From Chiloscyllium plagiosum (taxonomy: Eukaryota): DNA of 64,000 nt. This document shows, piece after piece, positions 1,226 to 57,100 of the stretch. Both the position numbers and the translations under genes were made by a program. The notes under the pieces were generated by a model that was given only the letters and a program-made list of their open reading frames with translations, was not told where the DNA came from and made no database searches. How positions within the stretch are numbered: position 1 is the stretch's first letter; each line of letters opens with the position of its first letter. The stretch is taken from contig NC_057726.1 of assembly GCF_004010195.1 (NCBI RefSeq), positions 68,855,155-68,919,154 of the forward strand. Direction: 5' to 3'.

Positions 1226-1501
1226 GTTGGGGCAGCAGTGTTTTCAGGAGAGTCTTTACACCGATGGCTGCTTGGCTACAGATCTGAGATCCCAGGCTCT
1301 GCCTGCCAAAGGCAGGTTCTCCTACTGTTGTGCACACTCCCATTGGTCAGGACAAGAGACAGTGCTTACATCCCCTGACCTTGAACCTTTCTCTCAGCTA
1401 TCCCCCTCTTTTCTCACCCTAATCCCTCCACCAAACTCACTGGAGCTCCCATTTTCTCCACAGCTCTCCTCCCACCGACTGCCTGCCTGTCTGTCTAGAG
1501 G

Positions 1502-1633
1502 CAAAAGTGCGGACTGCAGATGCTGGAAACCAGAGTTTAGATTAGAGTGGTGCAGGAAAAGCACAGCAGGTCAGGCAGCATCCGAGGAGCAAGCAGGAAA
1601 ATCGACGTTTTGGGCAAAAGCCCTTCATCAGGG
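1502..1633 (-). mobile_element. Short Penelope-derived element with hammerhead motif
   Basis: Minus strand reads CTGATGA-AGGGC-TTTT-GCCC-AAAACGTC; 11-bp TSD CTGTCTAGAGG (1491-1501 / 1634-1644). Confidence 0.8.
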
Positions 1634-2059
1634 CTGTCTAGAGGTCAGCCGCCAGACAAACAGGTAGGCAGTCTGAACACTTCAGCCAGCCTTTTCAGTT
1701 GTAAACATACAAATAAGGAACAAGAGGAGGCCATATGGTTCTTCGGGCCTGCTACACTGTTTAATAAGATGATACCTGATCTGATTTTAAACTCAATCCT
1801 GCATTCCTACATATCCCCGACGATTTTTCATCCCTTTGGTAATCAAGCATCCATCCACTTCTGCCTTTAAAGTTAGTGCATCCAATGGCTTTTGAAGACG
1901 TGAATTCCAAAGACACTCCACATCCAGTGAGTTTTGTGGACAGAATCCAAAGCTGCTCTCTTGATATTAGTGTCAACTTGTATCCATAACAATGTGCTTT
2001 TAAGGTCATTAACCTGACAAAAAAGTCCTGAGGGATATTTCGAGGGGTTGGGCAATTCC

Positions 2060-2320
2060 AAAGCGTCTTAGCTCCTGTATTTAATGCTCTGAGCAATGAA
2101 GGCAAACGCGCCAAACACCTCCTTCACCACACTGTCTATCTGCAGCACCATTATCAAGGAAGTGTGTATGTGAACCCCAAGGTCTCTCTGTTTGATAGCA
2201 CTGACCAGAGCCCTGCCAATAACTGTGTAAGTCTTACTGTGCTTTGTCTTACCAAAATGCAACACCTTGAATTCATTTGGATTAAACTCCATTTGTCATT
2301 CCTCAGCTCTTTGGCCCAGG
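2060..2320 (-). mobile_element. CR1 LINE RT fragment
   Basis: MEFNPNEFKVLHFG..QRDLGVHIH. Confidence 0.8.
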
Positions 2321-2429
2321 TATCTCGAGAATGATGGTTTTGCAGGGTGCTTTAGAATTTTCTGAGGGTGATAAAGGCTCCATTATAAGCCATGAGCCAT
2401 AGCAACAGGTCAAGAGCAGTGAACTATTG

Positions 2430-4577: not shown

Positions 4578-7500
4578 GTACGTTCAGCTTCCAATCTCCT
4601 TGTCAATCCGACTCTCCATTTTCCCATCTCTCCCGGCACACTCAGTGTCAGTGTCAAAATTTTTCAATTATCCTGACTCTCTCTCCCGCGCTCTCTGACT
4701 CTCTTTATCTGCCTCTCTCCCCTTTTTCTCAGGGTCTCTTAGCTACCAGAGCTGAAAATGTGTTGCTGGAGAAGCGCAGCAGGTCAGGCAGCATCCAAGG
4801 AGCAGGAGAATCGACATTTCGGTCATAAGCCCTTCTTCAGGCTTATGCCCAAAACGTCGATTCTCCTGTTCCCTGGATGCTGCCTGACCTGCTGCGCTTC
4901 TCCAGCAACACATTTTCAGCTCTGATCTCCAGCATCTGCAGACCTCACTTTCTCCTCTTAGCTACCAGCCTGTCACTCCCTGACTTTGGAAAATCTTTAA
5001 ACTTTTAAAACCGACAACTCTGACTAGCCCATAAGCTCTGCTTCTACACTTTGTTCTCTCTGCTACTGTCTTACCAGGTGTTTGTCTTTGCCAAGTCCTG
5101 AAGAATGTTCAGACTTCCCAGTCACTAAAACGCCCAACCAGTTCTAGTTGGACAGAAAGTTTCTGGGAGTGTGGCTGACTGAAGAGACTAGGCCTCAAAT
5201 ATGCAGTGTAAAAGCAAGCTGTACGTGACCCTGCTTCCTCTAGGTGTGCCATTTGAAAAGTGATATTTTAAATGTTGCATCTTAATGCTTTGCTGATATA
5301 TTTGGATTTGGCATCATTTCTGGCGCTGGCAATCTATTGCTCCAAATCACACTGAGATGAGTAAAGGACATTCAGTCCATAGTCTTTTTTTACTCATTGG
5401 CAAATAGGGTTAAGGAGAATCCAGAAGGTTTTTACAAATACATGAAGGACAAAAGGGTAGCTAGGGAGGGATCGGGGCCCCTCAAAGGTCAGCAAGGCAG
5501 CCTTTGTGTGGAGCTGTAGGAGACGAGGGAGATACTAAATGATTATTTTGCATCAGTGTTTACTGTGGAGAAAGTCATGGAAGATATAGAATGGAGGGAA
5601 ATAGATGGTGACACCTTGAAAAATATCAATATTACAGAGGAAGAAGTGCTAAGTGTCTTGAAATGCATAAAAGTGGATAAATCCCCAGGACCTGATCAGG
5701 TGTACCCTAGAACTTTGTGGGAAGCTAGAGAAGTGATTGCTGGGGCCCTTGCTGAGATATCTGTATCATCGATAGTCACAGGTGAGGTGCTGGAAGACTG
5801 GAGGTTGGCTAACATGGTGCCACCATTTAAGAAAGGTGGTAAGGACAAGCCAGGGGACTATAGACCAATGAAACTGACGTCGGTGGTGAGCAGGTTGTTG
5901 GAGGGAATCCTGAGGGACAGGATGTACATGTATCTGGAAAGGCAAGGACTGATTAGGGATAGTCAGCATGGATTTGTGAGTGGGAAATCATGTCTCACAA
6001 ACTTGATTGGGTTTTTTGAAGAAGTAACAAAGACGATTGATGAGGGCAGAGTATAGGACGTGATCTATATGGACTTCAGTAAGGCGTTCGACAAGGTTTC
6101 ACATGGGAGACTGGTTAGCAAGGTTAGATCTCATGGAATACAGGGAGAACTAGCCATTTGGATACAGAACTGGCTCAAAGGTAGAAGATAGAGGGTGGTG
6201 GTGGAGGGTTGTTTTTCAGACTGGAGGCCTGTGACCAATGGAGTGCCACAAAGATCGGTGCTAGGTCCACTACATTTCATCATATTTGATTTGGATGTGA
6301 GCATAAGAGGTACAGTTAGTAAGTTTGCAGATGACACCAAAATTGGAGGTGTAGTGGACTGTGAAGACAGTTACATCAGATTACAATGGGATCTTGATCA
6401 GATGGGCCAATGGGCTGAGAAGTGGCAGATGGAGTTTAATTCAAATAAATGCGAGGTGCTGCATTTTGGGAAAGCAAATCTTAGCAGGACTTATACACTT
6501 CATGGTAAGGTCCTAGGGAGTGTTGCTGAACAAAGAGACCTTGGAGTGCAGGTTCATAGATCCTTGAAAGTAGAGTCGCAGGTAGATAGGATAGTGAAGA
6601 AGGTGTTTGGTATTCTTTCCTTTATTGGTCAGAGTATTGAGTACATGAGTTGGGAGGTCATGTTGCGGCTGTATAGGATGTTGGTTAGGCCACTTTTGGA
6701 ATATTGCGTGCAATTTTGGTCACCTTTCTATCGGAAGGATGTTGTGAAACTTGAAAGAATTCAGAAAAGATTTACAAGGATGTTGCCAGGGTTGGAAGAT
6801 TTTGACTATAGGGAGAGGCTGAAGAGACTGGGGCTGTTTTTCCTGGAGCACCAGAGGCTGAGGGTGACCTTTCAGAGGTTTATAAAATTATGATGGGCAT
6901 GGGGTGGGAGTCCAGAACTAGAAGGCATAGGTTTAAGGTGAGAAGGGAAAGATATAAAAGAGACCTAAGGGGCAACTTTTTCATGCAGAGGGTGGTGCGT
7001 GTATGGAATGAGCTGCCGGAGGAAGTGGTACAGGCTGGTACAATTGTAACATTTAAAAGGCTTCTGGATGGGTATATGAATTGGAATGGTTTAGAGGGAT
7101 ATGGGTTGGGTGCTAGCAAATGGGACTAGATTAGGTTGGGGTATCTGGTCGGCATGGATGGGTTGGACTGAAGGGTCTGTTTCCATGTTGTATATCTCTG
7201 ACACTGTCACTCTATAACCAGGGAGATGCAGTTTTTCACTCTCCAGATCAGTGTCACGTGCAGTTATAGAGTCGTAGAGCTGTACAGCATGGAATTAAAC
7301 CCTTCGGTCCGACTCGTCCATACCGATCAGATATCCCAAATCCCAATTGGCCCATATCCCTCTCAACCCTTCCTAACCATATACCCATCCTGATGCCTTT
7401 TAAATGCTCTAATTGTACCAGCCTCCACCACATCCTTTGGCAGCTCATTCCATAAAGACACTGCCCTCTGCATGAATAGGTTGCCCTTTAGATCCCTTTT

Positions 7501-16500: not shown

Positions 16501-19500
16501 AGTGCGTACAGCACTCAATAGTCTCTTGGTGTCGTTTTTACTGGGTTAGCAATATTGCTTGATTTTGGCATCCATATGTCTTCTGGTAAAATGGAGGATT
16601 CTAGTGGGCTCTTTGCCAACATGATCAACCTGATCTGCCATCACTGGTCTAGAGTCATTGAGATGTACAACATGGAAACAGACCCTTCGGTCCAACACAT
16701 CCATGCCGACCAGATATCCGAAGTTAATCCAGTCCCATTTACCAGCATTTGATCCATATCTCTCTAAACCCTTCCTGTTCATAAACCCATCCAGATACCT
16801 TTTAAATGCTGTAATTGTATCAGCTCCACCACTTCCTCTAGCAGTTTATTCCATACATGCACCACCCTCTGTGTGGAAAAAGTTGCCCCTCGGGTGCTTT
16901 TATATCTTCCCCACCTCCTGCTTCCCCCTACCCACCTTAAACCCGTGCTCTCTAGTTTTGGACTCCCTTACCCTGGGGAAAAGACCTTGACAATTCACCC
17001 TATCCATGCCCTTCTAAAATGTCACCCTCGATGTTCCAGGGTAAATAGCCTCAGCCTGTTCAGCCTCTCCCTATAGCTCAATTCCTCCAACCCTGGCAAC
17101 ATCCGTGAAAATCTTTTCTGAATCCTATCAATTTTCACAATATTTTTCCAATAGCAGCCCTGGGAACCCAGACCCTGAATCCGTCTGCTATTCCTTCAGC
17201 TCCGGACGTTCTCCACAGACACCAGGAAGTGGTTCAGGGGATGTGAATGAAAGTTTCCCAGACGGATTCTGGTCCAATCAGGATAGTGATAGACGGTACT
17301 CAGGGATGTGCTGCAGCCTTGAGAGCGGTTTGGGAGGTTGCAGAGTGAGGAGTCATCAGCAGGACAAGGTTAGATTGCAGTCCGGGAGAGAGGTGCCGAG
17401 CACTGGGAGGTTAGGATAACTGGATAGGGGAAATCTTCCTCCTCAGGTGCAGTGCTAAACCTGGTTGTTCCTCCCTTCTCCCTTCAGCTGCAGGGATTCT
17501 GGAGTCTTCGATAACAAATCCAGGACCATTCAGTCGTGACTGACTCTCTCATCATACAATTAAATAGCAGACCCACCCGTTTTTAAAGTAGTCGTCGGTG
17601 TTTGAAGTCAGATGGATCAGGTTTCGGATTTTTGGGCATGACATAAAAGATATTGGGGCTTAAGCAGGAACAAACTCTTAGGCAAGTGGGTGGCACGGTG
17701 GCTCAGTGGTTAACACTACTGCCTCACAGCGCCAGGGTCCCAGGTTCAATTCCAGCCTCGAGTGACTGTCTGTGTGGAGTTTGCACATTCTCCCCATGTC
17801 TGCATGGGTTTCCTTCGGCTGCTCCGGTTTCCTCCCACAGTCCAAAGATGTGCAGGTCAGGTAAATTGGCCATGTTAAGTTGCCCATAGTGTTAGGTGCC
17901 CTAGTCAGAGGGAAATGGGTCTGGGTGGGTTACTGTTCAGAGGGCCGGTGTGGACCTGTTGGGCCGAAGGGCCTGTTTCCATACTGTAGGGAATCAAATC
18001 TAATCAGAATCTAATCAAAGCTTGAACCTCTGACCTCGGGGAAAGGAAAGCAAGTGACAGAGCAGCCGATCTTAACCTTAGTTGCAAAGATGTTCAAGAA
18101 CAGCTTTCATTTCTTGTTGGAGGTGAGGGTGGAGGAGACAGGATGCAGAGCTTTACGAAGGCGGATTGCACTCAGTGTGTTGGTGGGGAGACGGTATGTC
18201 TGATGAAGGGCTTTTGCCCGAAACATTGATTTTCCTGCTCCTCGGATGCTGCCTGACCTGCTGTGCTTTTCCAGCACCACTCTAATCTTGACTCTGATCT
18301 CCAGCATCTGCAGTCCTCACTTTCGCCTGGGAGACAGGGTGCGTTTTGTGTTCAAGGGTGATTGCCCGCTGGTGGAACAGTTATGTTGCCGTATTCAGTG
18401 ACTCCACACTGGGTGAGGTTGAAGTGCCTTTACTGACTGTGTGAACAAGCTCCTGGCTGCCGTTGAGGACTAACGTTGCCTCCATTCTTCTGCCCTCTTT
18501 CCCTGACAGTCGATCGAGGGATCCATGTTCACCCTCAGTCTCGGTGACTGGATGGAGCTTCCTGACCTTCCCTTCAGGGACTGGATGAGACTCAAGCGAA
18601 GGTAATCCTGGCTAATGATAGAAAAGCCATCTGACACCAACTTGCGGGGCTGTGTTTGGTCTCTTCATTTAGTTCCACACAACCCCTCCCCTCCCCAACT
18701 CCCCGCCATCCCATTCTCCCTGCTCACTCCAATGGAGAAGACTGGGCTGGTGATTAATGGCCTTGAACAGCACCATTTTCTACCAGGGATTGTGCTTCTC
18801 AGAGTATAGTGGGCATGGTTAATGTTTAATTGTACACAGGTCCCCATACACAATGCTTAAGAGCAGAAACAGGCCACTTGACCCTTTAAACCTGTGCACC
18901 ATTCATTAAAGTCATGGTTGATCTATTTGTGTTCAAATTCCACGTTCCCACCTATCCTCAAAATTTTTTGATTCTCCTTCTCTAAGAAGAATCGAACCAC
19001 CGAAATCTTAAAAATAAAAATTCAGCCCTCTGAGAGAAATATTTTTCCTCATCTCTGTCCTTGAAGGCAGGCCCTTATTTTAAAACAGTGCCACCTAGTT
19101 TTGGACTTACCCTGAAGAGGAAACCTCCTTTTTATTATAGCCCTGTTAAGGATCTTGTATATCTCCATCTAGCCTTGCTGTACTCTTTAAAATTCCAGTG
19201 GAAACTGTCCGATCTGCTCATAGAATCCCCTACAGTGTAGACGCAGACCATTCGGCCCATCAAGTCCACACCAACCGTCTGAAGAGCCCCCTGCCCAGAC
19301 CAACCCCCCATTCTCCTTGTAACCTTGCATTTCCCATGGCTGATCAACTCCTACATATCCTTAGACACTTCAGGCAATTTAGCATGGCTAATCCACCTAA
19401 CCTGCACATCCTTGAACTGTGGGAGGAAACTGGAGAAACCCTCGCAGATACAGGGAGAATGTGCAAACGCCACACAGGCAGTCACCTGAATTGAACCCGG

Positions 19501-32620: not shown

Positions 32621-32665
<45 letters not shown>

Positions 32666-35440: not shown

Positions 35441-35444
35441 CTCT

Positions 35445-36150: not shown

Positions 36151-36676
36151 AGGAGTTAATATTTCAGATCGAGTGACTGTTCCTCAGAATCTGACCTGAA
36201 ACATTAACTCTGATTTCTCTCCACAGATGCTACCAGGCCTGCTGAGCTTTTTCAGCAATTTCTGTTTTTGTTTCTGATTTATGGCATCCGCAGGTTTTGT
36301 TTTGGTTTTTATTGTTAGACTACAGTCTGCCTGTTACCCACATTTATCACGTTTTAATTCTGTATTTTAGAGAAAACGTTGTGTAATTATTGTGGATTAT
36401 TTTACTTGTTAATAAAGTTTATTGTTGTTTGTTGAAAATCATAGCAGTTCTGACTTTATTTTCTTAATAATCCTATAATATCAAACTTCATCTACTTCAA
36501 GCAAACAATATTACTGATCCTTAATCAGATCAGAACATAGCTTGGTCTGGATTCATAACGTGATCTCGGGGAGAGAAAATAAACTTTCTCCTTACTAACT
36601 CAAAATTGTTGACATTTTCAATTTCAGAAGAATTGTTTGTCATATTCAATGTTTTGTTATTGGACTAGTAACGTAA

Positions 36677-36845
36677 GAGATGGAAATGTGTTGCTGGAAA
36701 AGCGCAGCAGGTCAGGCAGCATCTAGGGAACAGGAGAATCGACGTTTCTCCTGTTCCCTAGATGCTGCCTGACCTGCTGCGCTTTTCCAGCAACACATTT
36801 CCATCTCTGATCTCCAGCATCTGCAGACCTCACTTTCTCCTCAAA
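36677..36845 (+). mobile_element. Fold-back Penelope-derived element with a perfect 63-bp stem
   Basis: Arms 36676-36738 / 36746-36808; 14-bp TSD GACTAGTAACGTAA (36663-36676 / 36846-36859). Confidence 0.9.
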
Positions 36846-37600: not shown

Positions 37601-37790
37601 GAGTCGAAGGATATGGTGCTGGAAAAGCACAGCAGGTCAGGCAGCATCCGAGGAGCAGGCGAATCAATGTTTTGGGCATAAGCCCATCATTAGGTTCCTG
37701 ATGAAGGGCTTATGCCTGAAATGTCGATTCTACTGTTCCTTGGATACTGCCTGACCTGCTGTACTTTTCCAGCACCACACTCTTGGCTCT
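37601..37790. mobile_element. Fold-back Penelope-derived element with hammerhead cores on both strands
   Basis: CTGATGAAGGGCTTATGCCTGAAATGTC from 37698, with an inverted copy upstream. Confidence 0.82.
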
Positions 37791-41170: not shown

Positions 41171-41189
41171 AGCGATTTAAAAAAAAAAC

Positions 41190-42830: not shown

Positions 42831-44879
42831 AGACAGTATGATGCTATCGTTAGCATGCAAGAACTTGGAGATACATGTTAATATTCTGGTCAAAAGAAGC
42901 AGAAAGAATGCGAGGAAGTAACATTTTTACATATTTTTGGAAATTGGCTGAGTAGTATGAATCAGAGAGTAGGGACTTTGTTTTGCAAAGTTAAAAATAG
43001 GATCTCAGGAACTAGTCCATCTTAGATTCAAAGCTTATATTTCCATGTTCTACAGCTCACTGGATTTGTTTCTCCTCCCATTCCTCTTAGTGGGATCATA
43101 CCTTGCATCTTAACTATCTCCTCTTTGAAGAAGTCATACCAAATTTGAACTGTTAACTTTGTTTCTCTCTTCACAGATGCTGCCAGATCTGCTGAGTTTC
43201 TCCAGTCTTCTCTGTGTTTGTTTCAAATTTCCAGCATTTGCAGTATTTTGATTTTATTGTAATAAACCTGAAATTCACCCAGGATCTGAAGCAAATTGTA
43301 CTGTGAACTGACTTTGAACTTTCCAGAATTTAAAGAAACAGTATTTCAAATTTGTAATCTTCACTTGGAATCAATATGAGTCCTTTCTGATTTGATTTGA
43401 TTTATTACTGCTATATGCACCGAGGTACAGTGGAAGGTTTTGTTTTGTGTGCAATACGGACAGATCATACCATTCAAAGTGCCTTAGGGTAATAAAACAG
43501 AGTGAGGAATACAATGTTACAGCTGCAGTAAAGGTGCAGAGATTGAAATCAACAATATATTTAAAATTTCAGAGGTTCATTTAGAAGTCTAATAACCACA
43601 GGGAAGAAGCTGTTCTTGAATCTGTTTACATGTGTATACTACTTTTTATACCTTCTCCCCAATGGAAGGGGAGGGATGCTACTAAAAGAGATTAGGGAGC
43701 CAGACAGGGTTTTCTGACAATCTGCAATGGTTTCATGGCCATCATTAGACTCTCAATTCCAGATGTTTGTTGAATTCAAAGTCCACAACCTGTCATGGCA
43801 GGATTCAAATCCAGGTCCTTAGAAACATGACCTGGGTCTCTAGATTGATGAATCAGCAATAATACCATGAGGCCATCATCTCCACTGCAGTTGCCACTTC
43901 AACTATCAGTTCATTCCGCATTTGAACCACCCTCTGTGTGAAAAAATTACCCTTCTTGTCCTTTTTAACTCTTTCTTCTTTCACTTTAAATATATGACCC
44001 CGAATCTTGAACTCCCCCAGCCTAGGCAAATCCATCCTTGCTATTCACCTAATCTATGCTCCTTATGATTTTATAAGGCTCTATAAGGTCACCCCTCAAC
44101 CTCTTATACTCCAGTGAAAAAAGTCTCAGCATATCCAGCCTCTCAAAACCTGTGAGGGAATCAAGTTCTGAAATACATCAACCATGACTTTATACAATGG
44201 CAGGGCTGAATGACCTGCTCTTAATGTGTAGATTCCTACCTGCTTCATTAATGCTCTTTGGGAAGGGAAATCTGCCATCTTGACACAGTTTGAGTAACGA
44301 CGTGGTTCATTCTTATCTGCCCCTCTGAAATGGCCCTCACAAGACATTCATTCCAAGAGGTAATTAAATATGAGCCACACATGCCAGCCTTGGCACTGAC
44401 TTCCAAACCTCATGAACAAATATTTTTTAAAAAGATGCAGACACACAGACTCCAGGAGAGGGGAGCTAGTGTCTCTCTCATGCCTCTTTCCATACCTCCT
44501 GATAGTCTGAATACATCTCAGTTTTGAGCACCTGCTCTGCTCCACTACACCTGTAATGAAAAGTGAGAGAATGACCAGTGTGTCCAGAGCCTGCAGCAAC
44601 CAAGTGGGGCTAGTTTCGTTGGAGATTATGTCGGCATGGACTGGTTGGACTGTATGACATCGCTGATTTGGAAACACTTTGTTTTTTCTCATTCTTCTTT
44701 TTTTATTTTTCAGTCTATGATGTCACCACACTTTTTCTTTCTAATCGCAATAGTATAGGAGACTCCAGGGTCTGAACATCTACCAATACCTAGTGTTTTG
44801 AGCAGCTCTGATTTTGAGCAATCTCTGGGATATCCTAACAAAATCGCTCCCGAACCTATGGAGCCCCCACTCCCTTGCT

Positions 44880-47060
44880 TTTAGTTATGTCTTTTAGATG
44901 CTGGTTTAAATCTACCACTTATATATCGACCGCCTCAGCCTGTCCACCCCTTCTCACCCACTCCAACCTCTCACTCTCACAGCCCTCCACTCCCTCCGCT
45001 CCAACCCCAACCTCACCACCAAACCAGTGGGCAAGGGCGGGTGGGGGACCGCAGTGGTAGCATGGCACACTCACCTCTACCTTGCTGAAGCTTGATGCCA
45101 ACTCTCTGACACCTCTTCCTAATGGACCCTCGACCATGACCCCACCTCCCATCACCAAGCCATCATCTACAACCTCATCACTTCAGGGGATCTCCCAACC
45201 ACAGCCTCCAACCTCATAGTGCTCCAACCCTGCAGTGCCTGGTTCTATCTCTTAGCCAAAATCTACGAACCTGATTATCCCAGTCGACCAATTGTCTCTG
45301 CCTAGCCCTGCCCCACTGAACTTATCTCCTCATATCTCAATTCCATCCTATCCCCTTGGTCCATGAACTCTCCACATATGTCCAGGACACCACCCACACC
45401 TTCCACCTTCTTGATGACTTTTGATTTCTCGGTCCCAAACACCTCATATTCATTATAGACATCCAGTCCAAGTACACCTCCATCCTCTATGATGAATGCA
45501 TAAAAACCCTCTGTTTCTTCCTCTGCCTCCAACCCAAACAGTCTCCCTCCACCAATGCTCTCATTCGATTAGTGGAACTGGTTCTCACCTTCAACAATTT
45601 CTCATTTGAATCCTCCCACATCCTATGGACAAGAGGGGTAGCCATGGGCACCCGCATGGGCTCCAGCCATGCCTGCCTCTTTGCAGGCTATGTGGAACAG
45701 TCCATCTTCTGCAGTTACACTGCCACCATTCGCCACCTTTTCCTTTGCAACATTGATGACTGTATTGGCACCACCTCGTGCTCCCACGAGGTGACTGAAC
45801 AGTTAATCAACTTCACTAACACCTCTCACCCTGACCTCAAATTCATATGGACCATCTCCGAGACCTCAATCCCCTTCCTGGAACTCTCCATCTCCATTTC
45901 CGGCGACTGACTCAACATCGACATCTATTTCAAACCCACCCATTCCCACAGCTAGTTTATCTACACCTCCTCCCACACCCCCTCCTATAAAAACACCATC
46001 TCTTACTCCCAATTCCTTTGCCTTTGCTGCATCTGCTCCCAGGAGGAGCAATTCCACTCCAAGACTTCCCAGATGTCGTCCTATTTCAGTGACTGCAGTT
46101 GCCCCTCCTACATGATCAACAATGCCCTCACATCTCCTTCACTTTCCATGCCTCCACCCTCAAACCCCAAACCCCCAACCACAGGAATAGAAACCCCCAG
46201 TCCTCACATTCACCCACAAATCTCCAGATACAGTACTTTATCCTCTGCCATTTTTGCCATCTACAGTCAAAGCCCAACACTAAAAATATATTTCCCTCTC
46301 CAGCCCTATCTGCATTCTCCACCAACCCACCCACTACAGCTGACACCTTCACCACTACTGCACAAAGTGCAAAACCTGCACCAACTCCTCTCCCATAACC
46401 TCTGCCCAAGGCCTGAAGCATCATTTCAAATCTGGCAGAGATTTTCCTGCAAATCACTTTATTTACTGCATCATTACTCTCAATGTGGTGTCCTCTACAT
46501 CAGGGAGACAGAAAGCCAACTCACAGAGCAGATCAGGGAATATCTCCGGTCACTTACACCAAGCAACTGCACAGTCCTGTGGCCAACCATTTCAACTCTT
46601 CCTCGCATTCCCCCAAGGACATGCAAATCCTGGGCCTCCTCCACTGCCAAATCAAAACCACCAACCAACTGGAGGAAGAATGCCTCATCATCTGCCTTGG
46701 GAACCTACAGCCTATATGAACATTGACTTCACCAGCTTCCAAATCTCCCCACCGCCCAGCTCATCCTAGATCCAACCCCCAACTCGGTACTTCCCTCTTG
46801 ATCTTACCTATCTGTTCATCTTCCTTTCCACCTATACATTCCACCTTCCCCACAAACCTATCACAATTACCTCTTACTTGCATTCACCAATCACCATTCC
46901 ACCTACCGTCCTCCAAGCCCCAATCCCACCCCTTTATCTCTCAGCCCCCTTCCCTCTCTACATTCCTGATGAAGGGCTTATGCCCAAAATGTTGACTCTC
47001 CTGGTCCTCGGATGCTGCCTGACATGCTGTGTTTTTTCCAGCACCACACCTTTCAACTCC
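44880..47060 (+). mobile_element. Decayed Penelope-like retroelement (RT + GIY-YIG remnant + 3' hammerhead)
   Basis: FYLLAKIYEPDYPSRPIVS (~45243), LTFNNFSF..GVAMGTRMG..NIDDC..HPDLKF..IPFLE, CGVLYIRET (~46485), CTGATGA at 46966; many stops and frameshifts. Confidence 0.88.
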
Positions 47061-47214
47061 AATTCTTGGAACAAGAATTCCTTAGATAAATCTATGTCAA
47101 ACATCTTTTTAATTATCTTTCAAATCACCTTGAGACATTTTGTTGCATTAAGATAATAAACAAATTCATGTTGCTGTCACCTGATGTCAGTTTCCCTTTG
47201 AAAAATGCTTCCGG

Positions 47215-47670: not shown

Positions 47671-47794
47671 ATATATATGTTAATTTTTTAAAGTATTATT
47701 GAAAGCTCTTTGCAGTGCTTTCACATTCAAAGTAATACATAGCACCTTGTCTGGATGGGGAGGTGTAAACATGCTAATTAATTTTAATAAAAAT

Positions 47795-47930
47795 CAAAAG
47801 ATCTGCCAAAGGTGTAAATCAAACAACAGAAATTAAAACGGCAATTACTGGAAAAGCTCAGCACATCTGGCAGCACCTGTGCAGAGAAATCAGAGTTAAT
47901 GTTTCAATTCGAGTGATCCTTCCTCAGGAC
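47795..47930 (-). mobile_element. Older hammerhead-bearing Penelope short element
   Basis: Minus strand CTGAGGA-AGGATCACTCGAATT-GAAACATT plus the family body. Confidence 0.65.
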
Positions 47931-50489
47931 TCAAATTTTCTAAATAATTTGAAATTGGATCTATTCACCAATGGTTTGAAAACCTACTAGGTTCAGTGTT
48001 TTAAAAAAAATTCTCAAGGTCAGGTTCGTAGGAGAGTAGTCTGACACAGAACAAATGACCAAGAGGCGAGTCTGCTAGAATATGGGCATTTTATTCCCCG
48101 CAGCGTCGCCACAACCAACGGGTCTGGCTTATACTCACTCTACATGTTACCGGAACTGGGAGCCGTCAGTTCTCGTAGAGCGGTTGCCAACAACCCACGC
48201 TCGGCGGTTAAACGTAACCCCGGAGCAGACTCACCGAACTGGAGACTTTTCCAGCTGATATACTCTTTTCCAGATATAAACATTCATGTGAACAGCAGAG
48301 CAAGGCTAAAAAACACATTCCATTCTGGTTACATACAGATAAGAAGATTCACACGGGGAGGTGTGTAATAAGATTCACACGGGACTAAGCAACACCTCCA
48401 TTCCGGTTAGATTCACACATGTATTGGGACATAATTTTTAACCGTTTCACCACATTCAGGAAGAAAGGAAAAAAGACATTGGGTAAATGTGCTAAGAACT
48501 AACTATTCCTGGAGGATAGATATCATAATGGATTGGTTATACTAACACATTTTTGACTATGTATAACTATAATAAACAAGCATATCTTCTATGAACCTCT
48601 TATTGCAAGATTCAAAACATTTGACAGACTATATTCCACAAAGCACCCAAAGGTCATATTATACAAACTTCCCTGAAAATGTGCTGTGTCCACATTTAAC
48701 CTTGGATATTCCTGAATGGAATATCTTAGATTCAGCTCTCCTGCCAGCTGGGCCATTTTCTTACTGAGTAGGAATACTTGAACTGAGATACATTTTAATA
48801 ATTGCATCAATTAATGGGGAGTTTGCTGGAGTCAGTTGCAGTGCTAAATGAGAGGCTATGTGGCAATTGACTGAAGGGGCCAAATAGCTAATGAGAAAAG
48901 ACTAAGAAAGATGGGGAAAGAAAAGCAAACTATCCACTTCTAGGAGCATACCCCCACCTCCCCCAAACTCCCCCCCCCCCCCCACCGCCAACTGACCAGG
49001 GACAAAGACTCAGGAGGCAGGCAGAATTCAGGCAAGTGGCAGACTTTTATTCAAGTAGAAACCAGTTAATGATGGAGAGGGCTAAAGGATTTTCCCCAAA
49101 TCTGGCCTCGATGTGAGAACACAATTATTCCCTTAATCTTTGGCTCAGGTTGGAGGCGAGATCAATGACACATTCAAATCTTTACAGTGAAATATAGCAT
49201 TTTTATACATTTTGTGTTACAATAATCACATTCAGCATGGTCACAATGTTTTTCTCTCTTATTCCATATGCCCAATCCCGTGAAACAGCTAATCAGTGAT
49301 GGGCATTCCTATGACAGCCTCAGGTTCCCATGATCTCATGGCATTTAACAGACATTGTATTCTTCAGGCCTTGGAATCTTTTTGTGCATCCTATTAATTA
49401 ACAGTCCAAAGTTACTGGTTAAACTCCTCTAGTATGTCCCAGACTTGCTTATCTCTAAGGACTGCTGTAATTCTGTTATTCATAGTATTTTCCACTGCTC
49501 CATCTATCTATATATATATGACGGTTGGTTTTAACAAACTGCTATAGGATTCATAATATTAGTTTCTGTTATAAGTTAGTTACAAAGTGTAAAGTTATAT
49601 ACCTACTTCTACTGTTAGCACTTTGTGATTAATAAGTTTCAGCCAATCTATTTCATTCAGGGTGTATTACGCATCTTTTTAGAGATAAGAGAAAACATTT
49701 CTTGAGACTAATTAACATTTACATCTATGTTTAAATGTTTTTCCCCTAATGCTTCTGTTATACTTTGGTTGTACATGTATCTATGCTCATGCTGAAATCT
49801 AACTCTATGATTAACTGAAGAATCTTTAACTCGAACCTATTTCTCATCATTGTGAATAACTGCAAATAAACAAACAATTATTTTTTTAAAAAACTATATC
49901 TGATTAAAAACTACAGCTGATTAATAAGTTAAGTTGGTTGGTTCATGAACTGTTCTAACTGGTGCTGTTCACATAATGGGACAATATGCCTTTATGAACG
50001 AGAGTGGAATCTGTCATTTTGTGTCTTAAAGTTGGAAGAGACTGTCTTATTCTGTTGAACCCTTTCGGCCAATTTGTGTCTTTCAACATGAGCCGCCCTT
50101 ACACCACCGTAAATAAAACAAGTTTTACAAGACAATTCAATAATAGAAGGTATAATTACGCAACATGATTGTTTAGTAGAGATGCACCTTACTGATCTAA
50201 CTGTGAAAGTTACAGTGGGGGTTGCAAGTCCCTTGACAAAACTGCAGTACACATTGCATATGTGACACAGCACCTGGATGGGCAGAATCCAAGACCAGGA
50301 GGGTCAGGTTACTGGAGACTGTGGAATAAATGACTGCTCGATTCTACAAATGTTTGGACTCAATATTGAGTTGAACAATTTTAGGGTCTGAGGCAACTTC
50401 TGCCATGTCCTAGCCCAATCCCCACACACCAAGTTGGACCGAAGGGTCTGTTTCCATGCTGTACATCTCTGACTCTGACTCTAAATCTT

Positions 50490-50825
50490 GTTATCACATA
50501 GTCTGCTATGATACAAAACCCATTGTTAGCCACTAGTTGACCCCATTAGTAGCTATTCATTCTCCCAGATCGATCGTTACTCATTCCTTTGTTTGCCCAA
50601 CTGTTCTAGTCTCTCTTCGGGCTCTGTTCCTGCCTGCCGTTCACATCTTACCCCCTTCCACATCTGCTCCCCCCCCCCCCCCAAACACCCCAAATTTCCA
50701 TCTTCTGCATGTCACCAACTTTTTCCTGCTCGCTATCAGTTCTGAGGAAGGGGCGACTGGACCTGAAATGACCTGTCCACAGATGCTGTGAGATCCGCTG
50801 AGCTTTTCCAGCAACATCTGTTTTC
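50490..50825 (+). mobile_element. Penelope-like 3' fragment
   Basis: CTGAGGAAGGGGCGACTGGACCTGAAA at 50742, then CACAGATGCTG..CTTTTCCAGCA. Confidence 0.65.
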
Positions 50826-51091
50826 CATTGGGGCTGGACCGTTGTTCCGAAGTATTTCAGCTGGTGCATAACTCTGTGCGCAAGAAATATGTCGCTAGTC
50901 TAACGTGACATGATTTTAAAAAAGTTATCATCAAATAAAATCCGTGTTAGGCATCAGCGCTGAAAATTGCAAATGTTCATTCGTTCCAATTCACCTTTAT
51001 TTCATGCAAAAAGATGTGTGCAATTCGAAACCAAAAGAGAAGATGCTGGAAAATCTCAGCAGGTCTGGCAGCATCTGTAAGGAGAGAAAAG

Positions 51092-51645
51092 ATGGGGTAC
51101 TGGGCTAATGGTCGGATACTTGGTAGTGTGGATGAGCAGAGGGATCTTGGTGTCCATGTACACAGATCTTTGAAAGTTGCCACCCAGGTAAATAGTACGG
51201 TGAAGAAGGCATATGGCGTACTGGCTTTTATTGGTAGAGGAATTGAGTTCCGGAGTACTGAAGTCATGTTGCAGTTGTATAAGACTCTGGTGCGGCCGCA
51301 TCTGGAGTATTGTGTGCAGTTTTGGTCACCATACTATAGGAAGGATGTGGAGGCACTGGAACGGGTGCAGAGGAGGTTTACCAGGATGTTGCCTGCTTTA
51401 AATTAAGGGGGGGTAGGTATAGGACAGATGTTAGGGATAGGTTCTTTACTCAGCGAGTCATGAATTCATGGAATGCCCTGCCAGTAGCAGTGGTGGACTC
51501 TCCCTCATTATGGGCATTTAAGCGGGCATTGGATAGGCATATGGAGGATAGTGGGCTAGTGTAGGTTAGGTGGGCTTGGATCGGCGCAACATCGAGGGCT
51601 GAAGGGCCTGTACTGCGCTGTATTCTTCTATGTTCTATGTTCTAT
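51092..51645 (+). mobile_element. Young, internally deleted CR1 inserted into a minus-strand hammerhead element (51028-51691)
   Basis: Clean RT C-terminal peptide QRDLGVHVHRSLK..LEYCVQFWSP; AAAAGA duplicated at both junctions. Confidence 0.88.
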
Positions 51646-52318
51646 AAAAGAGCTGACATTTCGAGTCTAACTGCCCCTTTGTCAAAGCTGTGTACAATTC
51701 GACTTGCCGCTTTCCATTCCGCCGTTGAAACAATTCCTCCAAGTGAATGTGCGAGCAGTTGATGACATTAGGTATGTGACTGTTAACAAGAAAACAGGTT
51801 GAAAACGAAGCGGAAGCATTGCATGCATCAACAGATCATGGGTTAAGTCGAAATTTAGTTATTCTTTTTTTTTTAAAAAAAACGATGTTCAAGCTTATTT
51901 CTTAAAAGATGCGCCACAGACATTGCGCTCTCGATTCATTGTCAGAATCTACATCTGAGTGGGCGTGAGACTTCCGTCTAGCTCCTGTTTTGTAGGTATT
52001 GCTGCAAACCTCAGACGTTATGTAATTTCATTGATTAATTGAGACAACTGGCAGCTCTGTCACGGCATTACATCGAGGTTTCTTCAGAAGGCATTAATAA
52101 TTCTCAGTTAAGGGAAGAATTAAGATATATGCATATGGAATGGAATGTGAGGTAGATGAGGAGCAGTGAGCAGCTAGGAAGACAATGCAATGTTAGCTTT
52201 AACTTCAGTATGCAAGAGCAACATTTCTGTTCCTTCCTAACAATGACGATTTGGTCAAGTCGCTCCAATAATACCAATTGGCTCTCACCAGGTTTTAGTC
52301 CAAGGTTAAATACAGTCA

Positions 52319-52428
52319 GAAAAGCATAAAAGCTTTGACAAAGGGTCAGTTAGACTCGAAACGTCAGCTATTTTCTCTCCTTACAGATGCTGTCAGACCT
52401 GCTGAGATTTTTCAGCATTTTCTCTTTT
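52319..52428 (+). mobile_element. Penelope-derived short element with a U3-A8 variant hammerhead
   Basis: 15-bp TSD GGTTAAATACAGTCA (52304-52318 / 52429-52443). Confidence 0.85.
52331..52369 (+). ncRNA. Minimal type-I hammerhead ribozyme motif (predicted)
   Basis: AGCT-TTGACAA-A-GGGTC-AGTTA-GACTC-GAAA-CG-TC^-AGCT; stems I and II pair; palindromic ACGT stem III. Confidence 0.65.
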
Positions 52429-53983
52429 GGTTAAATACAGTCAATTGCATCTGAGAGGCGGGTAAGATTCTGAAACTGTAAGAGCTTAGGGATGGATTTA
52501 GGCTAATCGGCCCATCAACCTTGTCCACCATTCGATCATGGCAGATATGTTTCTCAACCTTATTCTCTCGTCTACTCCCCAGAACCTTTGATTCACTTAC
52601 TAGTCAAAAACCTATCCATCTTTATCTAAGATCCACTCAACATTAATAGTAGAAATATTAGGGATAGCAGCTTTGGGGCCATACTGCAGCATATGGTTAG
52701 TTGGCCTTGGAGGTAGATGCACCAGGAATGAGAACGAATTTGGGATTGAGATGTGACCTCGTAGAGATTCATAAAACCATGAAGAATATTCTTAGGATTA
52801 ATGGTAGGTATTTTACCCTAGAACGGGGGATTTTAAGACAAGGGGAAGGTATACATTTTTAAGGTAAGAGGAGAGAGATTGAAAAAAAGACGTGGGGGAC
52901 AACTTTTTTACACAGAATCTGGTTCACGTGTGGAATGAACTTTCTGCACAAGTGATGGGTGTGGGCACAGTTACAATGTTTAAAAGACACTTCGATAAGT
53001 ACATGAATACAAACGGTTTGCAGGAACAGGCAGGGGGGGCTAACTTAGTTTGGGTTTAGATCGCAGAGTCTGCCTCAATGCTCCATGACTACATAACTTA
53101 GAAGTAATTGCAGAAGATTTTTTTTCTTTATCCCTGGAACTAGCAATTATAACTTTTGGTCTCACGCAGCTAATCTGCAATCAATAAATGGCAATCACAC
53201 AGAGCTCAGCACTGAGCAATAGAGTAAAGAAAACCGACTAGAAATATCCCAGGCTGGAAATGCATTACGTAAAAGCTTTTTCAGACCACACAGGTTTTGT
53301 TAAACGTGAACTTGTATCCATCACCTAGAGCATGTGAAAGGAATGAACAGCAATAAACAGTGAAAGGAGACTGTGTTTTATGGAATTGTTAGTGAAGAAT
53401 AGGAAACTCGGAGCAAGGAATGGGGAAGAAAGGGAATATACAATGAATCATGTTAAAGTGCCCAAGTCAGTGGATATGACAACTGGTTTAGCTAGATTAC
53501 ATCTCAAAAGTATACGGAAACACATTACCAGAAAGAAAGGTCGATGAAAAGGATTATTTATAAATCAGCTTCAGGAAGGACTTTTTGGATCAGGAAACTA
53601 AATACTTAAGTTTCTAGCAACGAATTGATATGACAACTGAAGAAGACCCAGGGCAAATAAATTAGTAACACAGAGCATCAACTTAGCAGACTAAGTCTTT
53701 ACTAAATGTGTAGTGAAATGCTGTATAAGATATAAACCGGACTAGATGAGATATACAGTCATCAGATTGATTTGTTTAAACTTGGAGAATAGATTAAAAA
53801 AATGACAGTTTTCTTTAAAAGGAACCACACAAAAGCCTATAATATGACACAACAAACATTCTATCTCCTGAGGATGGTATCACACTGAGGATATCACACT
53901 GGGAGTAAAGAATGGGGCTCATAGGATAATCGACTGGGTGAAGGTTATTGAAGAGTTTAAATCTGGTACACCAATAATACGAA

Positions 53984-54179
53984 GGAGGAGAAAGTGAGGG
54001 CTGTACATCAGAGTCGAGAATGTGATTCCTGAAAAGCACAGCAGGTCAGGCAACATCCAAGGAGCAGGAAAACCTTCATCAGGAATGGTGGTGAAGGGCT
54101 TATGCCTGAAACGTCGATTCTCCTGCTCCTTGGATGCTGCCTGACCTGCTGTGCTTTTCCAGCACTACACTCTCGAAAT
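53984..54179. mobile_element. Fold-back Penelope-derived element
   Basis: Inverted arms; TSD CAATAATAYGAA (53972-53983 / 54180-54191). Confidence 0.82.
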
Positions 54180-57100
54180 CAATAATATGAAACATGCCAT
54201 GCGATGCAATCCAAACTATTTGGAGATACACTGTATACAAAAACAGACTAAACCTTTAGCTCTGCAGGTCGATTCTAAGAGCACAATATTTTTCTTTGGC
54301 TTGTGCATTCATAATTGACCAGGAATCAACAAGTTATGAATCTGTAATGGACCAAACAGGCTTCAGAGAAAATTCTATGTTGTCACCACACGCTGTTATA
54401 TCTGATGAATAAGATGCTCCAAACTGGAAATCCAAATCTGGGTAATTTCAACTGCTCAGAATGCGAATACTTGAAAAGATGTAGTACTGGCACATTAGTT
54501 TCATTTAGCTGCACTCGAAATGAAATTAACATGGGATCATGAGCCAGTTCCATCCATTCCACTATTTAAATGTTATTTAAATGTTATCTCTACCAGTAAT
54601 CTGTCAGTGACAGTGCAGGGTCTGAACCAGAACGGGATCTGTGACAGTGCGGGATATGTACCAGTACTGGGTCGGTGACAGAGTGGGGGGCCTATACCAG
54701 TACTGGGTCTCTGACAGTATGGGGTCTGTACCAGTACTAAGTCTGTGACAGTGCGGGGTCTGTAACAGTACTGGGTCAGTGACAGTGCGGGGTCTGTAGC
54801 AGTACTGGATCTGTGACAGTGTGGAATCTGTACCAGTACTGGGTCTGTGACAGTGTGGAATCTGTACCAGTACTGGGTCTCTGACAGTGTGGGGTCTGTA
54901 CCAGTACTACGTCTGTGACAGTTTGGAGTCTGTACCCGTACTGGGTCTCTGACAGTGCGGATTCTGTAGTAGTACTGCGTCTGTAACAGTACAGGGACTG
55001 TACCAGTACTGGGTCTGTGTCGGCGTGGGGTCATGTATCGGTACTGGATATGTGAAAGTTTGGAGTCTGTACCAGTACTGGGTGTGTGACAGTGTGGGGT
55101 CTGTACTCGTACTGGGTCTAGGACAGTGCTGGGTCTGTACCAGTACTGGGTCTGTGACAGTGAGGGGTCTGCAGCAGTACTCGGTATGTGACAGTGTGGG
55201 GCCTATACTAGTACTGTGTCTGTGACAGTCTGGGGTCTGTACCAGTACTAGGTCTTTGACAGTGTGGGGTCTGTACTCGCACTGGGTCTCTGACAGTATG
55301 GGGTCTGTACCAGTACTGGGTCTGTGACAGTGTGAGGTCTGTACCAAGGCTGGGTGTGTCACAGTGTGGGGTCTGTACCAGCACAAGGTCTGTGTCGGTG
55401 TGAGGTCTGCATCTGCACTTCATATGTGACAGTGTGGAGACTGTCCCAGAACTGTGTCTGTGACAGTGAGGTGTCTGTTCCAGTACTGGGTCTGTGACAG
55501 TGTGGAGTCTGCACCAGTATTGGGTCTGTGACAGTGCGGGGTCTTTACCGGCACTGGGTCTGTGACAGTAAGGGGTCTGTACCAGTACTGGGCCTGTGAC
55601 AGTGAGGGGTCTGTACCAGTATTTGTCTGTGACAGTGTGGAGTCTGTACCAGTACTGGGTCTGTGACAGAGTCGAGTCTGTACCGATACCGGGTCTGCGA
55701 CAGTCTGGTGTCAGTACCAGTACTGGGTCTGTGAAAGTGTGGGGTCTGTACCAGTACTGGGTCTGTGACAATTAGGGGTCTATACCAGTACTGGGTATGT
55801 GACAGTGTGGACTCTGTACCAGTACTGGGTCGGTGACAGTGTGGTGTCTGTACCAATACTGGGTCTGTGACAGTGCAGGGTCTGTACCAGTACTGGGTCT
55901 GTGACAATGTGAGATCTGTAGCAGTACTGGGTCTGTGACAGTGCTGGGTCAGTACCAGTACTGGGTCTGTGATAGTGTGGAGTCTGTACCAGTATTGGGT
56001 CTCTGACAGTGTGGAGTCTGTATCAGTACTAGGTCTGTGACAATGTGGTGTCTGCACCAGTACTGGATCTGTGACTCTGCATGGTCTGTACCAGTACTGG
56101 GTCTGTGACAATTAGGGGTCTGTACCAGTACTGGGTATGTGACAGTGTGGAGTCCGTACCAGTATTTGCCTGTGACAGTGTGGAGCCTGTACCAGTAATG
56201 TGTCTCTGACAGTGCGGGGTCTGTAGCAGTACTGGATCTGTGACCGTGCAGGGCCTGTACCAGTACTGCGCCTGTGTCGGTGTGGGGACTGTACCAGTAC
56301 TGTGTCTGCGACAGTGCAGCGTCTGTACCAGTACTGGCTCTCTAATAGTGTGGATTCTGTACCTGTACTGGCTCGGTGACAGTGTGGAGTCTGTATCAGT
56401 ACTGGGTCTCTGACAGTGTGGGATCTGTAGCAAGACGGTGTCTGTGACAGTGCAGGGATTGTACCAGTACTGGGTGTGTGACAGTGTGGGGTCTGTACCA
56501 GTACTGGGTCTCTGACAGTGTGGAGTCTGCACCAGTAGTGGGTCTGTGACAGTACGGTGTCTGTACCAGTACTGGGTTCTGACAGTACGGGGTCTGTACC
56601 ATACTGCTTCTGTGACAATGCAGGGTCTGTACCAGTACTGGGTCAGTGTCGGTGTGGGGCTGTATCTGTACTGGGTCTCTGACAGTGTGGAATCTGTACC
56701 AGTACTGGGTGTGTGACAGTGTGGGGTCTGCACCAGTAGTGGGTCTCTGACAGTACGGGGTCTGTACCATACTGCTTCTTTGACAATGCAGGGTCTGTAC
56801 CAGTACTGGGTCAGTGTCGGTGTGGGGCTGTATCTATACTGGGTATGTGACAGTGTGGAGTCTGTACCAGTATTGGGTATCTGACAGTGTGGAATCTGTA
56901 TCTGTACTGGGTCTGTGACAGTGTGGCGTCTGTACCAGTACAGGGTACTGGGTACTGTCACATACCCAGTACTAGTATAGACCCCTAATTGTCACAGACC
57001 CAGTACTGGTGCAGACTCCACACTGTCACAGACCCAATACTGGTACAGATTCCACACTGTCAGTACAGGGTGTGTGACAGTGTGAGGTCTGTACCAGTAC

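What the first reader, a model, noticed from the sequence alone, without database searches (positions are those of the whole stretch)
1491..54191. Window-wide family of short Penelope-derived elements carrying minimal hammerhead ribozymes
Seen: about 15 copies (1502, 4750, 18200, 27270, 28912, 32020, 33629, 36160, 36677, 37601, 43125, 47795, 50742, 51028/51646, 52319, 53984). Many show CTGAnGA-A-[stem II]-GAAACGTC, others only the shared GATGCTGCC..CTGCTG..TTTTCCAGCA body with a decayed or deleted core. Several have 11-15 bp TSDs. Known: Penelope-like elements carry minimal type-I hammerheads with a palindromic (ACGU) stem III that work as dimers. Inference: a very abundant non-autonomous ribozyme-bearing family with at least three subfamilies, about one copy per 4 kb, mostly disabled by CpG decay (CGAAA to CAAAA, ACGTC to ACATT).
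Basis: partly seen in the sequence, partly recalled or inferred. Interest (0 to 1): 0.7.

Follow-up and report, generated by a model that had tools for sequence, protein, structure and literature searches.

The report
Penelope stumps starting at their hammerhead
These short repeats are the ribozyme-bearing end pieces of ordinary Penelope-type jumping genes in what is likely a shark genome, almost all decayed; the one fresh lead is that many copies begin exactly at the ribozyme's first letters, which likely marks the start of the element's messenger RNA.

Summary
All 16 listed loci are real, plus one missed (17 loci, 22 arms, one per about 3 kb); 7 of 17 have 11-15-bp TSDs. The hammerhead fold covaries across subfamilies, including a U3-A8 core variant. 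Only 1 of 22 arms passes a strict descriptor; CpG core sites are changed in 15 of 44 cells against 3 of 94 elsewhere in the core.

The missed copy (44925-47060) is the 3' end of a decayed RT + zinc-linker + GIY-YIG ORF (Neptune-type), so subfamily A is the terminus of an autonomous element, not shown to be a separate non-autonomous family. Five loci are head-to-head pairs and the tail is never on both arms, both published PLE traits. A second, Poseidon-type family with intact cores lies at 59-60.6 kb.

19 of 22 arms span the scissile bond, so they were copied from uncut RNA. In the window and in public reads, 5' ends pile up at the first bases of helix I, about 31 nt after a TATA-like motif: likely the transcription start (untested). 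The scan has noted this shark family before (27 notes, at least 8 genomes).

The parts
1502..1633 (-). A-type arm with tail; starts at position 2.1/3 of the hammerhead; G12->A; 11-bp TSD (1491-1501/1634-1644)
4750..4954 (.). A-type head-to-head pair: minus arm 4750-4841 (no tail, starts at 2.1), plus arm 4840-4954 (tail, starts in helix II), 2-nt overlap; 14-bp TSD
18200..18327 (+). A-type arm with tail; starts at C3; G16.2->A, C17->U; 9-bp TSD candidate (p about 0.1)
27267..27372 (-). B1-type arm, decayed core (4 changes), 5-bp helix II, no TSD
28912..29245 (-). A-type copy with 245 nt of upstream pLTR, reaching the point that aligns with the ORF end of the 46.7-kb copy; no tail; TATTTAT 31 nt upstream of helix I
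31910..32146 (+). A-type copy with about 100 nt of upstream pLTR and tail, inserted in a LINE fragment; 9-bp duplication of LINE sequence
33627..33706 (+). B1-type arm, core intact (GUU triplet) but helix II cut to 2 bp; 3' end replaced by unrelated sequence
36153..36300 (.). B1-type head-to-head pair: minus arm 36153-36189 is the hammerhead alone (starts at 2.2); plus arm starts in loop II
36677..36840 (.). A-type head-to-head pair joined inside the quasi-palindrome around the cleavage site; tail on plus arm only; 14-bp TSD
37601..37790 (.). A-type head-to-head pair, both arms start in the helix I 5' strand (2.1 and 2.3), blunt junction at 37694/37695, no tail, no TSD
43125..43260 (+). B1-type arm with tail, decayed
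44925..46713 (+). Decayed PLE ORF: RT (44925-46129), Cys-rich linker remnant (46359), GIY-YIG endonuclease (YIG-like motif at 46496, to 46713); frameshifts and stops
47785..47939 (-). B1-type arm, G16.2->A; 11-bp TSD with one mismatch
50737..50826 (+). B1-type arm with a deletion across the cleavage site
51028..51689 (-). B2-type arm (U3-A8 core) split by a LINE fragment (about 51091-51645); starts at helix I position 2.4; 13-bp TSD with one mismatch
52319..52428 (+). B2-type arm, the only fully intact A/B hammerhead (52331-52369; U3-A8 core, 4-bp helix I, 5-bp helix II); perfect 15-bp TSD
53984..54179 (.). A-type head-to-head pair: minus arm with internal deletion and partial tail, plus arm starting inside the core; 12-bp TSD with one CpG change
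59071..59630 (-). Family C (Poseidon-type): GIY-YIG fragment, pLTR and intact minimal hammerhead (C3=59182), inside a 34-bp minisatellite
60006..60565 (-). Family C duplicate, 556 of 560 nt identical, 935 nt upstream on the same strand (C3=60117)

Best explanation
The short repeats are pLTR end pieces of endonuclease-bearing Penelope-like retrotransposons, likely inserted by the elements' own reverse transcriptase and GIY-YIG endonuclease as dead-end by-products rather than spreading as a separate family. Shown: subfamily A is the 3' end of an RT-linker-GIY-YIG ORF; copies have 11-15-bp TSDs, two alternative 3' ends about 33 nt apart, frequent head-to-head arms, and 5' ends clustered at helix I. 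Inferred, from the anole Poseidon biochemistry (PMC11167929): the protein binds the RNA just downstream of the hammerhead, nicks both target strands 11-15 bp apart and primes cDNA internally at one of two sites (tail or no tail); priming on both strands would give head-to-head arms. Inferred, about 45% likely: the mRNA starts at the first A of helix I, so priming at the 5'-most binding site would run off the RNA end after about 100-140 nt and leave a promoter-less stump with a fixed start. The hammerhead was selected in the master elements (covariation), was uncut in the copied RNA, and decays neutrally once inserted.
For: ORF attached to the A-type end: tblastn of shark proteins P0001-P0004 covers 44925-46713 at 45-66% identity; these carry RVT_1, and 2 of 4 a GIY-YIG hit and a Cys linker. 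Graded upstream lengths of 8 nt, 100 nt, 245 nt and 2.0 kb. Tail on 6 of 13 A arms, and on one arm only in 3 of 4 A pairs, on neither in the fourth. TSDs at 7 of 17 loci. 19 of 22 arms span positions 17/1.1; 1 of 22 starts within 3 nt of the cut. 5 of 13 A arms start in a 6-nt window at helix I (p<=4e-5 under five simple nulls, window chosen after seeing the data). In public reads the best-supported 'before' loose ends lie at 46960-46963 in three runs; in the two contig runs they have near-random flanks (agreement 0.31-0.34), and depth over hammerhead and body is about 10-55 times that over the endonuclease region. For B2, depth rises from under 100 to over 50,000 at 52326-52333. TATA-like 7-mer at -31, -34, -31 in 3 of 3 long A copies. 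Covariation: 7 of 9 pairs change on both sides, 0 of 500 shuffles reach the score. Non-CpG core changes 3 of 94 against 13 of 226 outside the core, p=0.41.
Against: No parent ORF was found for B1 or B2. The transcription start is inferred from motifs only; only 1 of 3 long copies has the exact TATTTAT, and the published D. virilis Penelope promoter is internal and TATA-less, with an intron ending at helix I (PMC2377424 passages; PMC4209133). Several arms start 1-4 nt inside helix I, not at its first base. One search showed 18 loose-end rows and hid 1,440, so the full distribution was not seen; the reference copy aligns poorly just upstream of helix I, which can itself create breaks there, and one large row (46933, 457 records) shows copies that do continue upstream. 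In one search the reference itself begins near helix I, and its loose-end rows there rest on 11 and 20 records. The RNA run showed no place where many molecules begin or end, though its library is poorly suited to that. Arms of a pair differ at 1-10 of 60 positions, which fits two templates or simply age.
Confidence: 0.75

Rival explanations
1. One reading: a self-propagating, SINE-like non-autonomous family. Short master copies are transcribed and copied in trans by PLE proteins.
For: Short copies greatly outnumber coding ones (1 of 9 A loci carries ORF; depth ratio about 10-55). B1 and B2 have no ORF-linked copy in the window and a sharp common start. pLTR sequences alone sufficed for mobilisation in trans in Adineta (PMC3846280 passages). 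Solo pieces keep the region that would bind the protein.
Against: A-type ends are continuous with an ORF and occur at graded lengths. Short copies lack the upstream TATA-like motif; read-through masters should hand on shared 5' flanks, but loose flanks at 46961-46963 are near-random in the contig runs. The same boundary recurs in three subfamilies with different sequences.
Confidence: 0.15
2. Ordinary 5' truncation: all copies are primed at the 3' pLTR of a long RNA and the RT tends to fall off just after passing the folded hammerhead, with no transcription start involved. This differs from the best explanation only in why 5' ends cluster.
For: 5' truncation and inverted truncated copies are general in PLEs (PMC8557442 passages). 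5' ends also occur inside the core and helix II (5 of 22 arms). Short microhomologies are seen at some arm junctions.
Against: Once the RT has passed helices I-3' and II no structure is left at the helix I 5' strand to stop it (inference). The pile-up is only about 4 nt wide and sits 31 nt after a TATA-like motif.
Confidence: 0.4
3. Retrozyme-like cycle: hammerheads cut tandem transcripts into monomers that circularise and are reverse-transcribed.
For: Two identical intact family C hammerheads lie 935 nt apart on one strand; this would meet the tandem criterion of the 2026 preprint. Religated circles would also give copies spanning the cut site.
Against: A/B copies are dispersed or head-to-head, never head-to-tail, and are not permuted at the cleavage site. 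The family C pair includes flanking minisatellite in the repeated unit, which points to DNA-level duplication. Predicted dimer folds are less stable than alternatives (B52: -15.1 against -21.6 kcal/mol), though such models omit tertiary contacts.
Confidence: 0.05

Closest known systems
Minimal type I hammerheads (min-HHR) in pLTRs of metazoan PLEs (Cervera and de la Pena 2014, PMC4209133; parts 1-2 of the main text read)
   Same: Core with an extra base between 9 and 10.1, G10.1-C11.1, palindromic 15.1-16.1, no helix III, mostly single dispersed motifs; a U3-A8 core variant is described there in Schistosoma Cercyon; opposite-strand pairs 100-700 bp apart are mentioned.
   Different: Sharks are not named in the parts read (supplementary alignments not seen). 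Helix I of subfamily A has an internal mismatch. A shared 5' start at helix I is not described in the parts read.
Neptune-clade EN+ PLEs and their insertion anatomy (Craig et al. 2021, PMC8557442; Arkhipova et al. 2013, PMC3846280; passages read)
   Same: RT, Cys-motif linker and C-terminal GIY-YIG; heavy 5' truncation; inverted truncated copy; 30-40-bp tail at one end; TSDs (8-10 bp in Adineta).
   Different: TSDs here are 11-15 bp. Most insertions are only 100-200 bp. The clade was assigned from the linker motif, not from a tree.
Poseidon from Anolis, PAc (Frangieh et al. 2024, PMC11167929; parts 1-2 read)
   Same: Two internal RT start sites that define the tail, both target strands cut and extended, uncut RNA as the main template. 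Family C mirrors its layout: an ATG at the start of helix II, cut 28 nt downstream (26 in PAc), element end about 105 nt after the ATG (111-118 in PAc).
   Different: Families A and B are a different lineage; none of the PAc biochemistry was tested here. The paper does not map a transcription start.
Animal non-LTR retrozymes (PMC7229834 passages; bioRxiv 10.64898/2026.07.22.740005, part 1 and passages)
   Same: Non-coding, type I hammerhead, PLE-related; reported in one chondrichthyan.
   Different: Retrozymes are head-to-tail tandem repeats, classically with canonical hammerheads. A/B copies are not tandem and their hammerheads are minimal.

Membership tests
EN+ Penelope-like elements | Single ORF with PLE-type RT followed by GIY-YIG endonuclease | tested here: met
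   Subfamily A: 44925-46713 matches P0001-P0004. Family C: GIY-YIG fragment only. Not shown for B1/B2.
EN+ Penelope-like elements | [quoted passage not shown] | tested here: met
   6 of 13 A arms carry it, about 33 nt; never on both arms of a pair (0 of 4)
EN+ Penelope-like elements | Inverted 5'-truncated copy at the 5' end; short TSD | tested here: met
   5 of 17 loci head-to-head; 7 of 17 with TSD
Neptune clade | Zn-finger-like Cys motif between RT and EN | tested here: met
   Present in 2 of 2 relatives that span the linker (P0003, P0004); remnant at 46359
Neptune clade | Placement in an RT tree with reference Neptune and Nematis elements | not testable with these tools
   No labelled clade references were on hand; the preprint reports only Neptune and Poseidon in vertebrates
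Penelope/Poseidon clade (family C) | No Cys linker between RT and EN | tested here: inconclusive
   The window fragment starts after the linker; relatives P0007, P0010, P0012, P0021 with RT and EN motifs lack the motif
Minimal type I hammerhead | Conserved core, extra base 9b, helices I and II, palindromic ACGU | tested here: met
   Fold covaries over 13 copies; fully intact in 1 of 22 A/B arms and 2 of 2 C copies
Minimal type I hammerhead | Self-cleavage as a dimer or with protein help | not testable with these tools
   Needs a bench assay; energy models do not favour the dimer fold
Non-LTR retrozyme | Head-to-tail tandem units, each with a complete hammerhead | tested here: not met
   0 of 17 A/B loci are tandem; the family C pair is tandem but carries coding sequence and flanking minisatellite
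Non-LTR retrozyme | Unit-length circular RNA | not testable with these tools
   RNA runs were a single-cell polyA library and contigs
Self-propagating non-autonomous (SINE-like) family | Fixed ends with no longer, coding-linked form; own promoter | tested here: not met
   Subfamily A has coding-linked and intermediate copies; inconclusive for B1/B2; promoter not tested

The most novel reading that the evidence does not exclude
In shark Neptune-type PLEs the mRNA begins at the first nucleotide of hammerhead helix I. Internal priming at the 5'-most protein-binding site then mass-produces fixed-start, promoter-less stumps and head-to-head pairs, and protein-assisted cleavage would clip off the capped first 32-35 nt: a decapping switch by which the element's protein could shut off its own mRNA. 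This would give the PLE hammerhead, dispensable for insertion in vitro, a testable job.
Probability: 0.25. Interest if true: 0.6.

Novelty: new member of a known kind. Interest (0 to 1): 0.3.

Why it matters
As a repeat family it is ordinary: PLE hammerheads, tails, inverted copies and TSDs are published. It matters for annotation (these are not a new ribozyme SINE) and as a very large natural record of PLE integration. If the shared 5' end is the transcription start, it explains why such genomes fill with unit-sized stumps and why PLEs need more-than-unit copies to stay active, and it makes the open question of what the minimal hammerhead does directly testable. The intact U3-A8 copy at 52331-52369 is a ready natural substrate.

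Tried and rejected
No whole genome is held for this window, so genome-wide counts rest on laid reads. Rfam at gathering thresholds: 0 hits. Pfam on the decayed ORF read through with X: 0 families in 3 of 3 frames; the family C fragment gave GIY-YIG at E=0.013, below cut-off; the assignment comes from homologues instead. PDB sequence searches: nothing meaningful. A body-motif scan of metagenome contigs gave 14 loci, 14 of 14 chance matches with no hammerhead or further similarity. No RNA holder was listed for the stretch; run X22 laid 0 reads and is no test. X21 reads lie on both strands and all but 2 of 1,858 only partly on the element, which fits read-through and says nothing on a discrete transcript. 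The higher share of the unmutated C15.2 in RNA (85-87%) than in contigs (56-59%) was set aside because short high-copy contigs may be under-laid. My first reading of the depth step as 500-1000-fold was dropped: the region just upstream aligns poorly, and the defensible figure is about 10-55-fold. Summed depth over single-copy depth would suggest about 10^5 A-type copies, but the tool states that it is no copy number. A splice acceptor as cause of the shared 5' end was rejected for subfamily A (no AG in 4 of 4 copies that reach there; no shared upstream exon in loose ends). Cleavage as cause of the 5' end was rejected (1 of 22 arms starts near the cut). Whole-element folding z-scores were unremarkable in 5 of 6 copies. 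The energy for the A28 dimer was discarded because its ACGU is mutated.


Full report
Setting. The window is CpG-depleted (observed/expected 0.32) and full of SINE- and LINE-like repeats (I recall these as the shark HE1 SINE and a CR1-type LINE, labels that come from no call). The best protein matches to its retroelement fragments are from carpet sharks (Chiloscyllium punctatum, Rhincodon, Hemiscyllium, Stegostoma; 60-93% identity), so the host is likely an orectolobiform shark. No whole genome was available.

Five loci are two arms joined head to head, so there are 17 loci and 22 arms (13 of type A, 9 of type B) in 52.7 kb. Seven of 17 loci have an 11-15-bp direct repeat at their edges, each at p<=0.006 against 1,500 random flank pairs; two have 9-bp candidates and the rest nothing convincing. 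Rfam finds nothing. A strict minimal-hammerhead descriptor hits 52335+, 59182- and 60117-, and nothing in 100 matched random sequences.

The hammerhead. Segmenting each arm gives helix I, the CUGANGA box, one extra base, helix II, GAA, ACGU and position 17. This is the minimal motif that Cervera and de la Pena describe for PLE pLTRs (PMC4209133, main text parts 1-2). On an alignment of 13 copies (12 of the 22 A/B arms and 1 of 2 C copies), 7 of 9 pairs change on both sides, 83.8% of cells pair, 0 of 500 shuffles reach the covariation score, and slid controls give 22-44%. The structure was drawn from these sequences and copies are related, so the controls flatter it. The 3-8 pair itself covaries: C-G in A, B1 and C, U-A in 2 of 2 B2 copies (51685-, 52335+). 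No other letter was listed at these two positions when four public runs were laid on the B2 copy. The same U3-A8 variant is published for Schistosoma. Within subfamily A, core positions in CpG are changed in 15 of 44 cells (4 of them C17->U), non-CpG core positions in 3 of 94, non-CpG non-core positions in 13 of 226 and the body in 11 of 286 (p=2e-6 and p=0.41). All 8 A arms that span the core have a core change, 5 of 8 only at CpG. So selection acted in the master elements, and inserted copies decay neutrally. Cleavage was not tested. Nearest-neighbour energies do not favour the dimer fold, in line with the weak in vitro activity reported for such motifs.

What the repeats belong to. The missed copy is decisive. 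Upstream of its hammerhead lies a decayed ORF: shark proteins P0001-P0004 align over 44925-46713 at 45-66% identity; all four have an RVT_1 hit and the two that extend far enough have a Cys-motif linker and a GIY-YIG hit. That architecture marks Neptune or Nematis PLEs (PMC8557442 passages); the 2026 preprint found only Neptune and Poseidon in vertebrates (passages). The copy at 28912-29245 follows the same pLTR for 245 nt up to the ORF end and the one at 31910 for about 100 nt. So subfamily A is the terminus of an autonomous element. B1 and B2 share the body and tail motifs with A but no ORF-linked copy lies in the window.

Insertion anatomy. A arms end either at a short site or about 33 nt further; 6 of 13 carry this tail, and in the four A pairs it is on one arm (3 pairs) or neither (1 pair). 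A one-sided 30-40-bp tail, an adjacent inverted truncated copy and short TSDs are published PLE traits (PMC8557442, PMC3846280 passages). Frangieh et al. showed for anole Poseidon that reverse transcription starts at two internal RNA sites that bound the tail, that both target strands are cut and extended, that uncut RNA is the main template, and that the hammerhead cuts only with protein (PMC11167929 parts 1-2). Transferred here by inference, this accounts for tails, TSD length and head-to-head arms. It also fits that 19 of 22 arms span the scissile bond and only 1 of 22 starts near it. The Adineta paper instead proposed self-priming on an antisense template for such junctions; the window cannot decide between them.

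The lead: where copies start. Five of 13 A arms start within six bases at the helix I 5' strand (p<=4e-5 under five simple nulls, window chosen post hoc); 4 extend upstream and 4 start further down. Seven of 9 B arms lose similarity to each other at the same place; two of these have 8 and 12 unassigned bases after the TSD. In public data laid on 46150-47150 at 80% likeness, the best-supported 'before' loose ends are at 46960-46963 in runs X1, X2 and X21 (position 2.4 is 46962; the cut site is 46993), with near-random AT-rich flanks in the two contig runs; depth over hammerhead and body is about 10-55 times that over the endonuclease region. Limits: 18 of 1,458 loose-end rows were shown, the old reference aligns poorly just upstream, and a row at 46933 shows copies that continue. 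For B2, depth climbs from under 100 to over 50,000 at 52326-52333, but the reference itself begins there. The three long A copies have a TATA-like 7-mer at -31, -34 and -31 from position 2.4, exact in one, and A, B1 and B2 have CA at positions 2.5/2.4 in the copies that reach there undisturbed; reading these as TATA box and initiator rests on recalled consensus motifs. The simplest account is that the mRNA starts at helix I and that priming at its 5'-most binding site runs off the end, leaving a promoter-less stump of 100-140 nt. I put this at about 45%; RT fall-off is the main rival. D. virilis Penelope differs: it has an internal, TATA-less promoter (PMC2377424 passages).

Literature and earlier notes. 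Seven paper searches turned up no description of these shark families or of a shared start at helix I; the library lacks most subscription papers, and Repbase and Dfam could not be consulted. The supplements of PMC4209133 (species alignments) were not opened and those of the preprint (its chondrichthyan retrozymes) are closed; both may bear on novelty. PMC6155905 and PMC7229834 were seen as passages; other papers only as listings. Earlier notes of this scan describe the same shark stumps (27 notes in at least 8 genomes), and one already suggests that the motif sits at the start of the mRNA. I had recorded that idea before seeing it; it is agreement, not independent evidence.

Verdict. 'Non-autonomous family' is not supported for subfamily A and is open for B1 and B2. 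Interest 0.3, resting on the start-site lead and the intact U3-A8 copy.

Noticed in passing
59071-60565 (-): Two near-identical Poseidon-type fragments with intact hammerheads lie 935 nt apart on one strand inside a 34-bp minisatellite; the only pair in the window that could form a dimeric ribozyme in one transcript. The GIY-YIG frame is open through the hammerhead to the element end and has an in-frame 15-bp duplication.
   Followed up: partly
P0006, P0018, P0020, P0024, P0028: Family C endonuclease sequence occurs inside annotated isoforms of shark host genes (MAP3K7, NT5DC1, CUEDC2, WBP2-like and one more), suggesting exonisation or annotation artefacts.
   Followed up: no
B-type bodies, e.g. 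33660-33680, 52370-52388: B1/B2 bodies read like a 3' splice site (pyrimidine tract, CAG, then ATG); A bodies mostly lack the AG.
   Followed up: no
1478-1496 with 1654-1671; 37584-37599: Short inverted repeats in the target DNA flank two insertions (16 of 18 nt around the first; a 7-bp hairpin beside the second). Pre-existing target feature or insertion by-product is unknown.
   Followed up: no
4750-4954, 36677-36840, 37601-37790, 53984-54179: Head-to-head pairs would form long hairpins in any read-through RNA, locking the hammerhead and offering double-stranded RNA to editing or silencing (inference).
   Followed up: no
20935-21969 (+): 345-codon open frame with Pyr_redox_2/3 hits (E 2e-8); resembles a large last exon of an OSGIN-type gene (recalled label).
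   Followed up: no
62902-63237 (-), about 61960-62060 (-): Immunoglobulin C1-set exon (E 5e-11) with a possible transmembrane exon about 900 nt downstream; MHC- or Ig-like gene.
   Followed up: no
54587-59065: 4.5-kb 34-bp minisatellite with an inverted segment near 56952-57063.
   Followed up: no
5520-6890 (+): LINE-type RT fragments (RVT_1, E 5e-7 and 7e-5), unrelated to the PLE ORF.
   Followed up: no
8034-8284 and 51395-51645: Two 98% identical 251-nt LINE 3' ends; the second splits the B2 copy at 51028-51689, so that LINE is younger than the B2 insertion.
   Followed up: partly
24738-25237, 41638-42137: Two 500-N assembly gaps.
   Followed up: no
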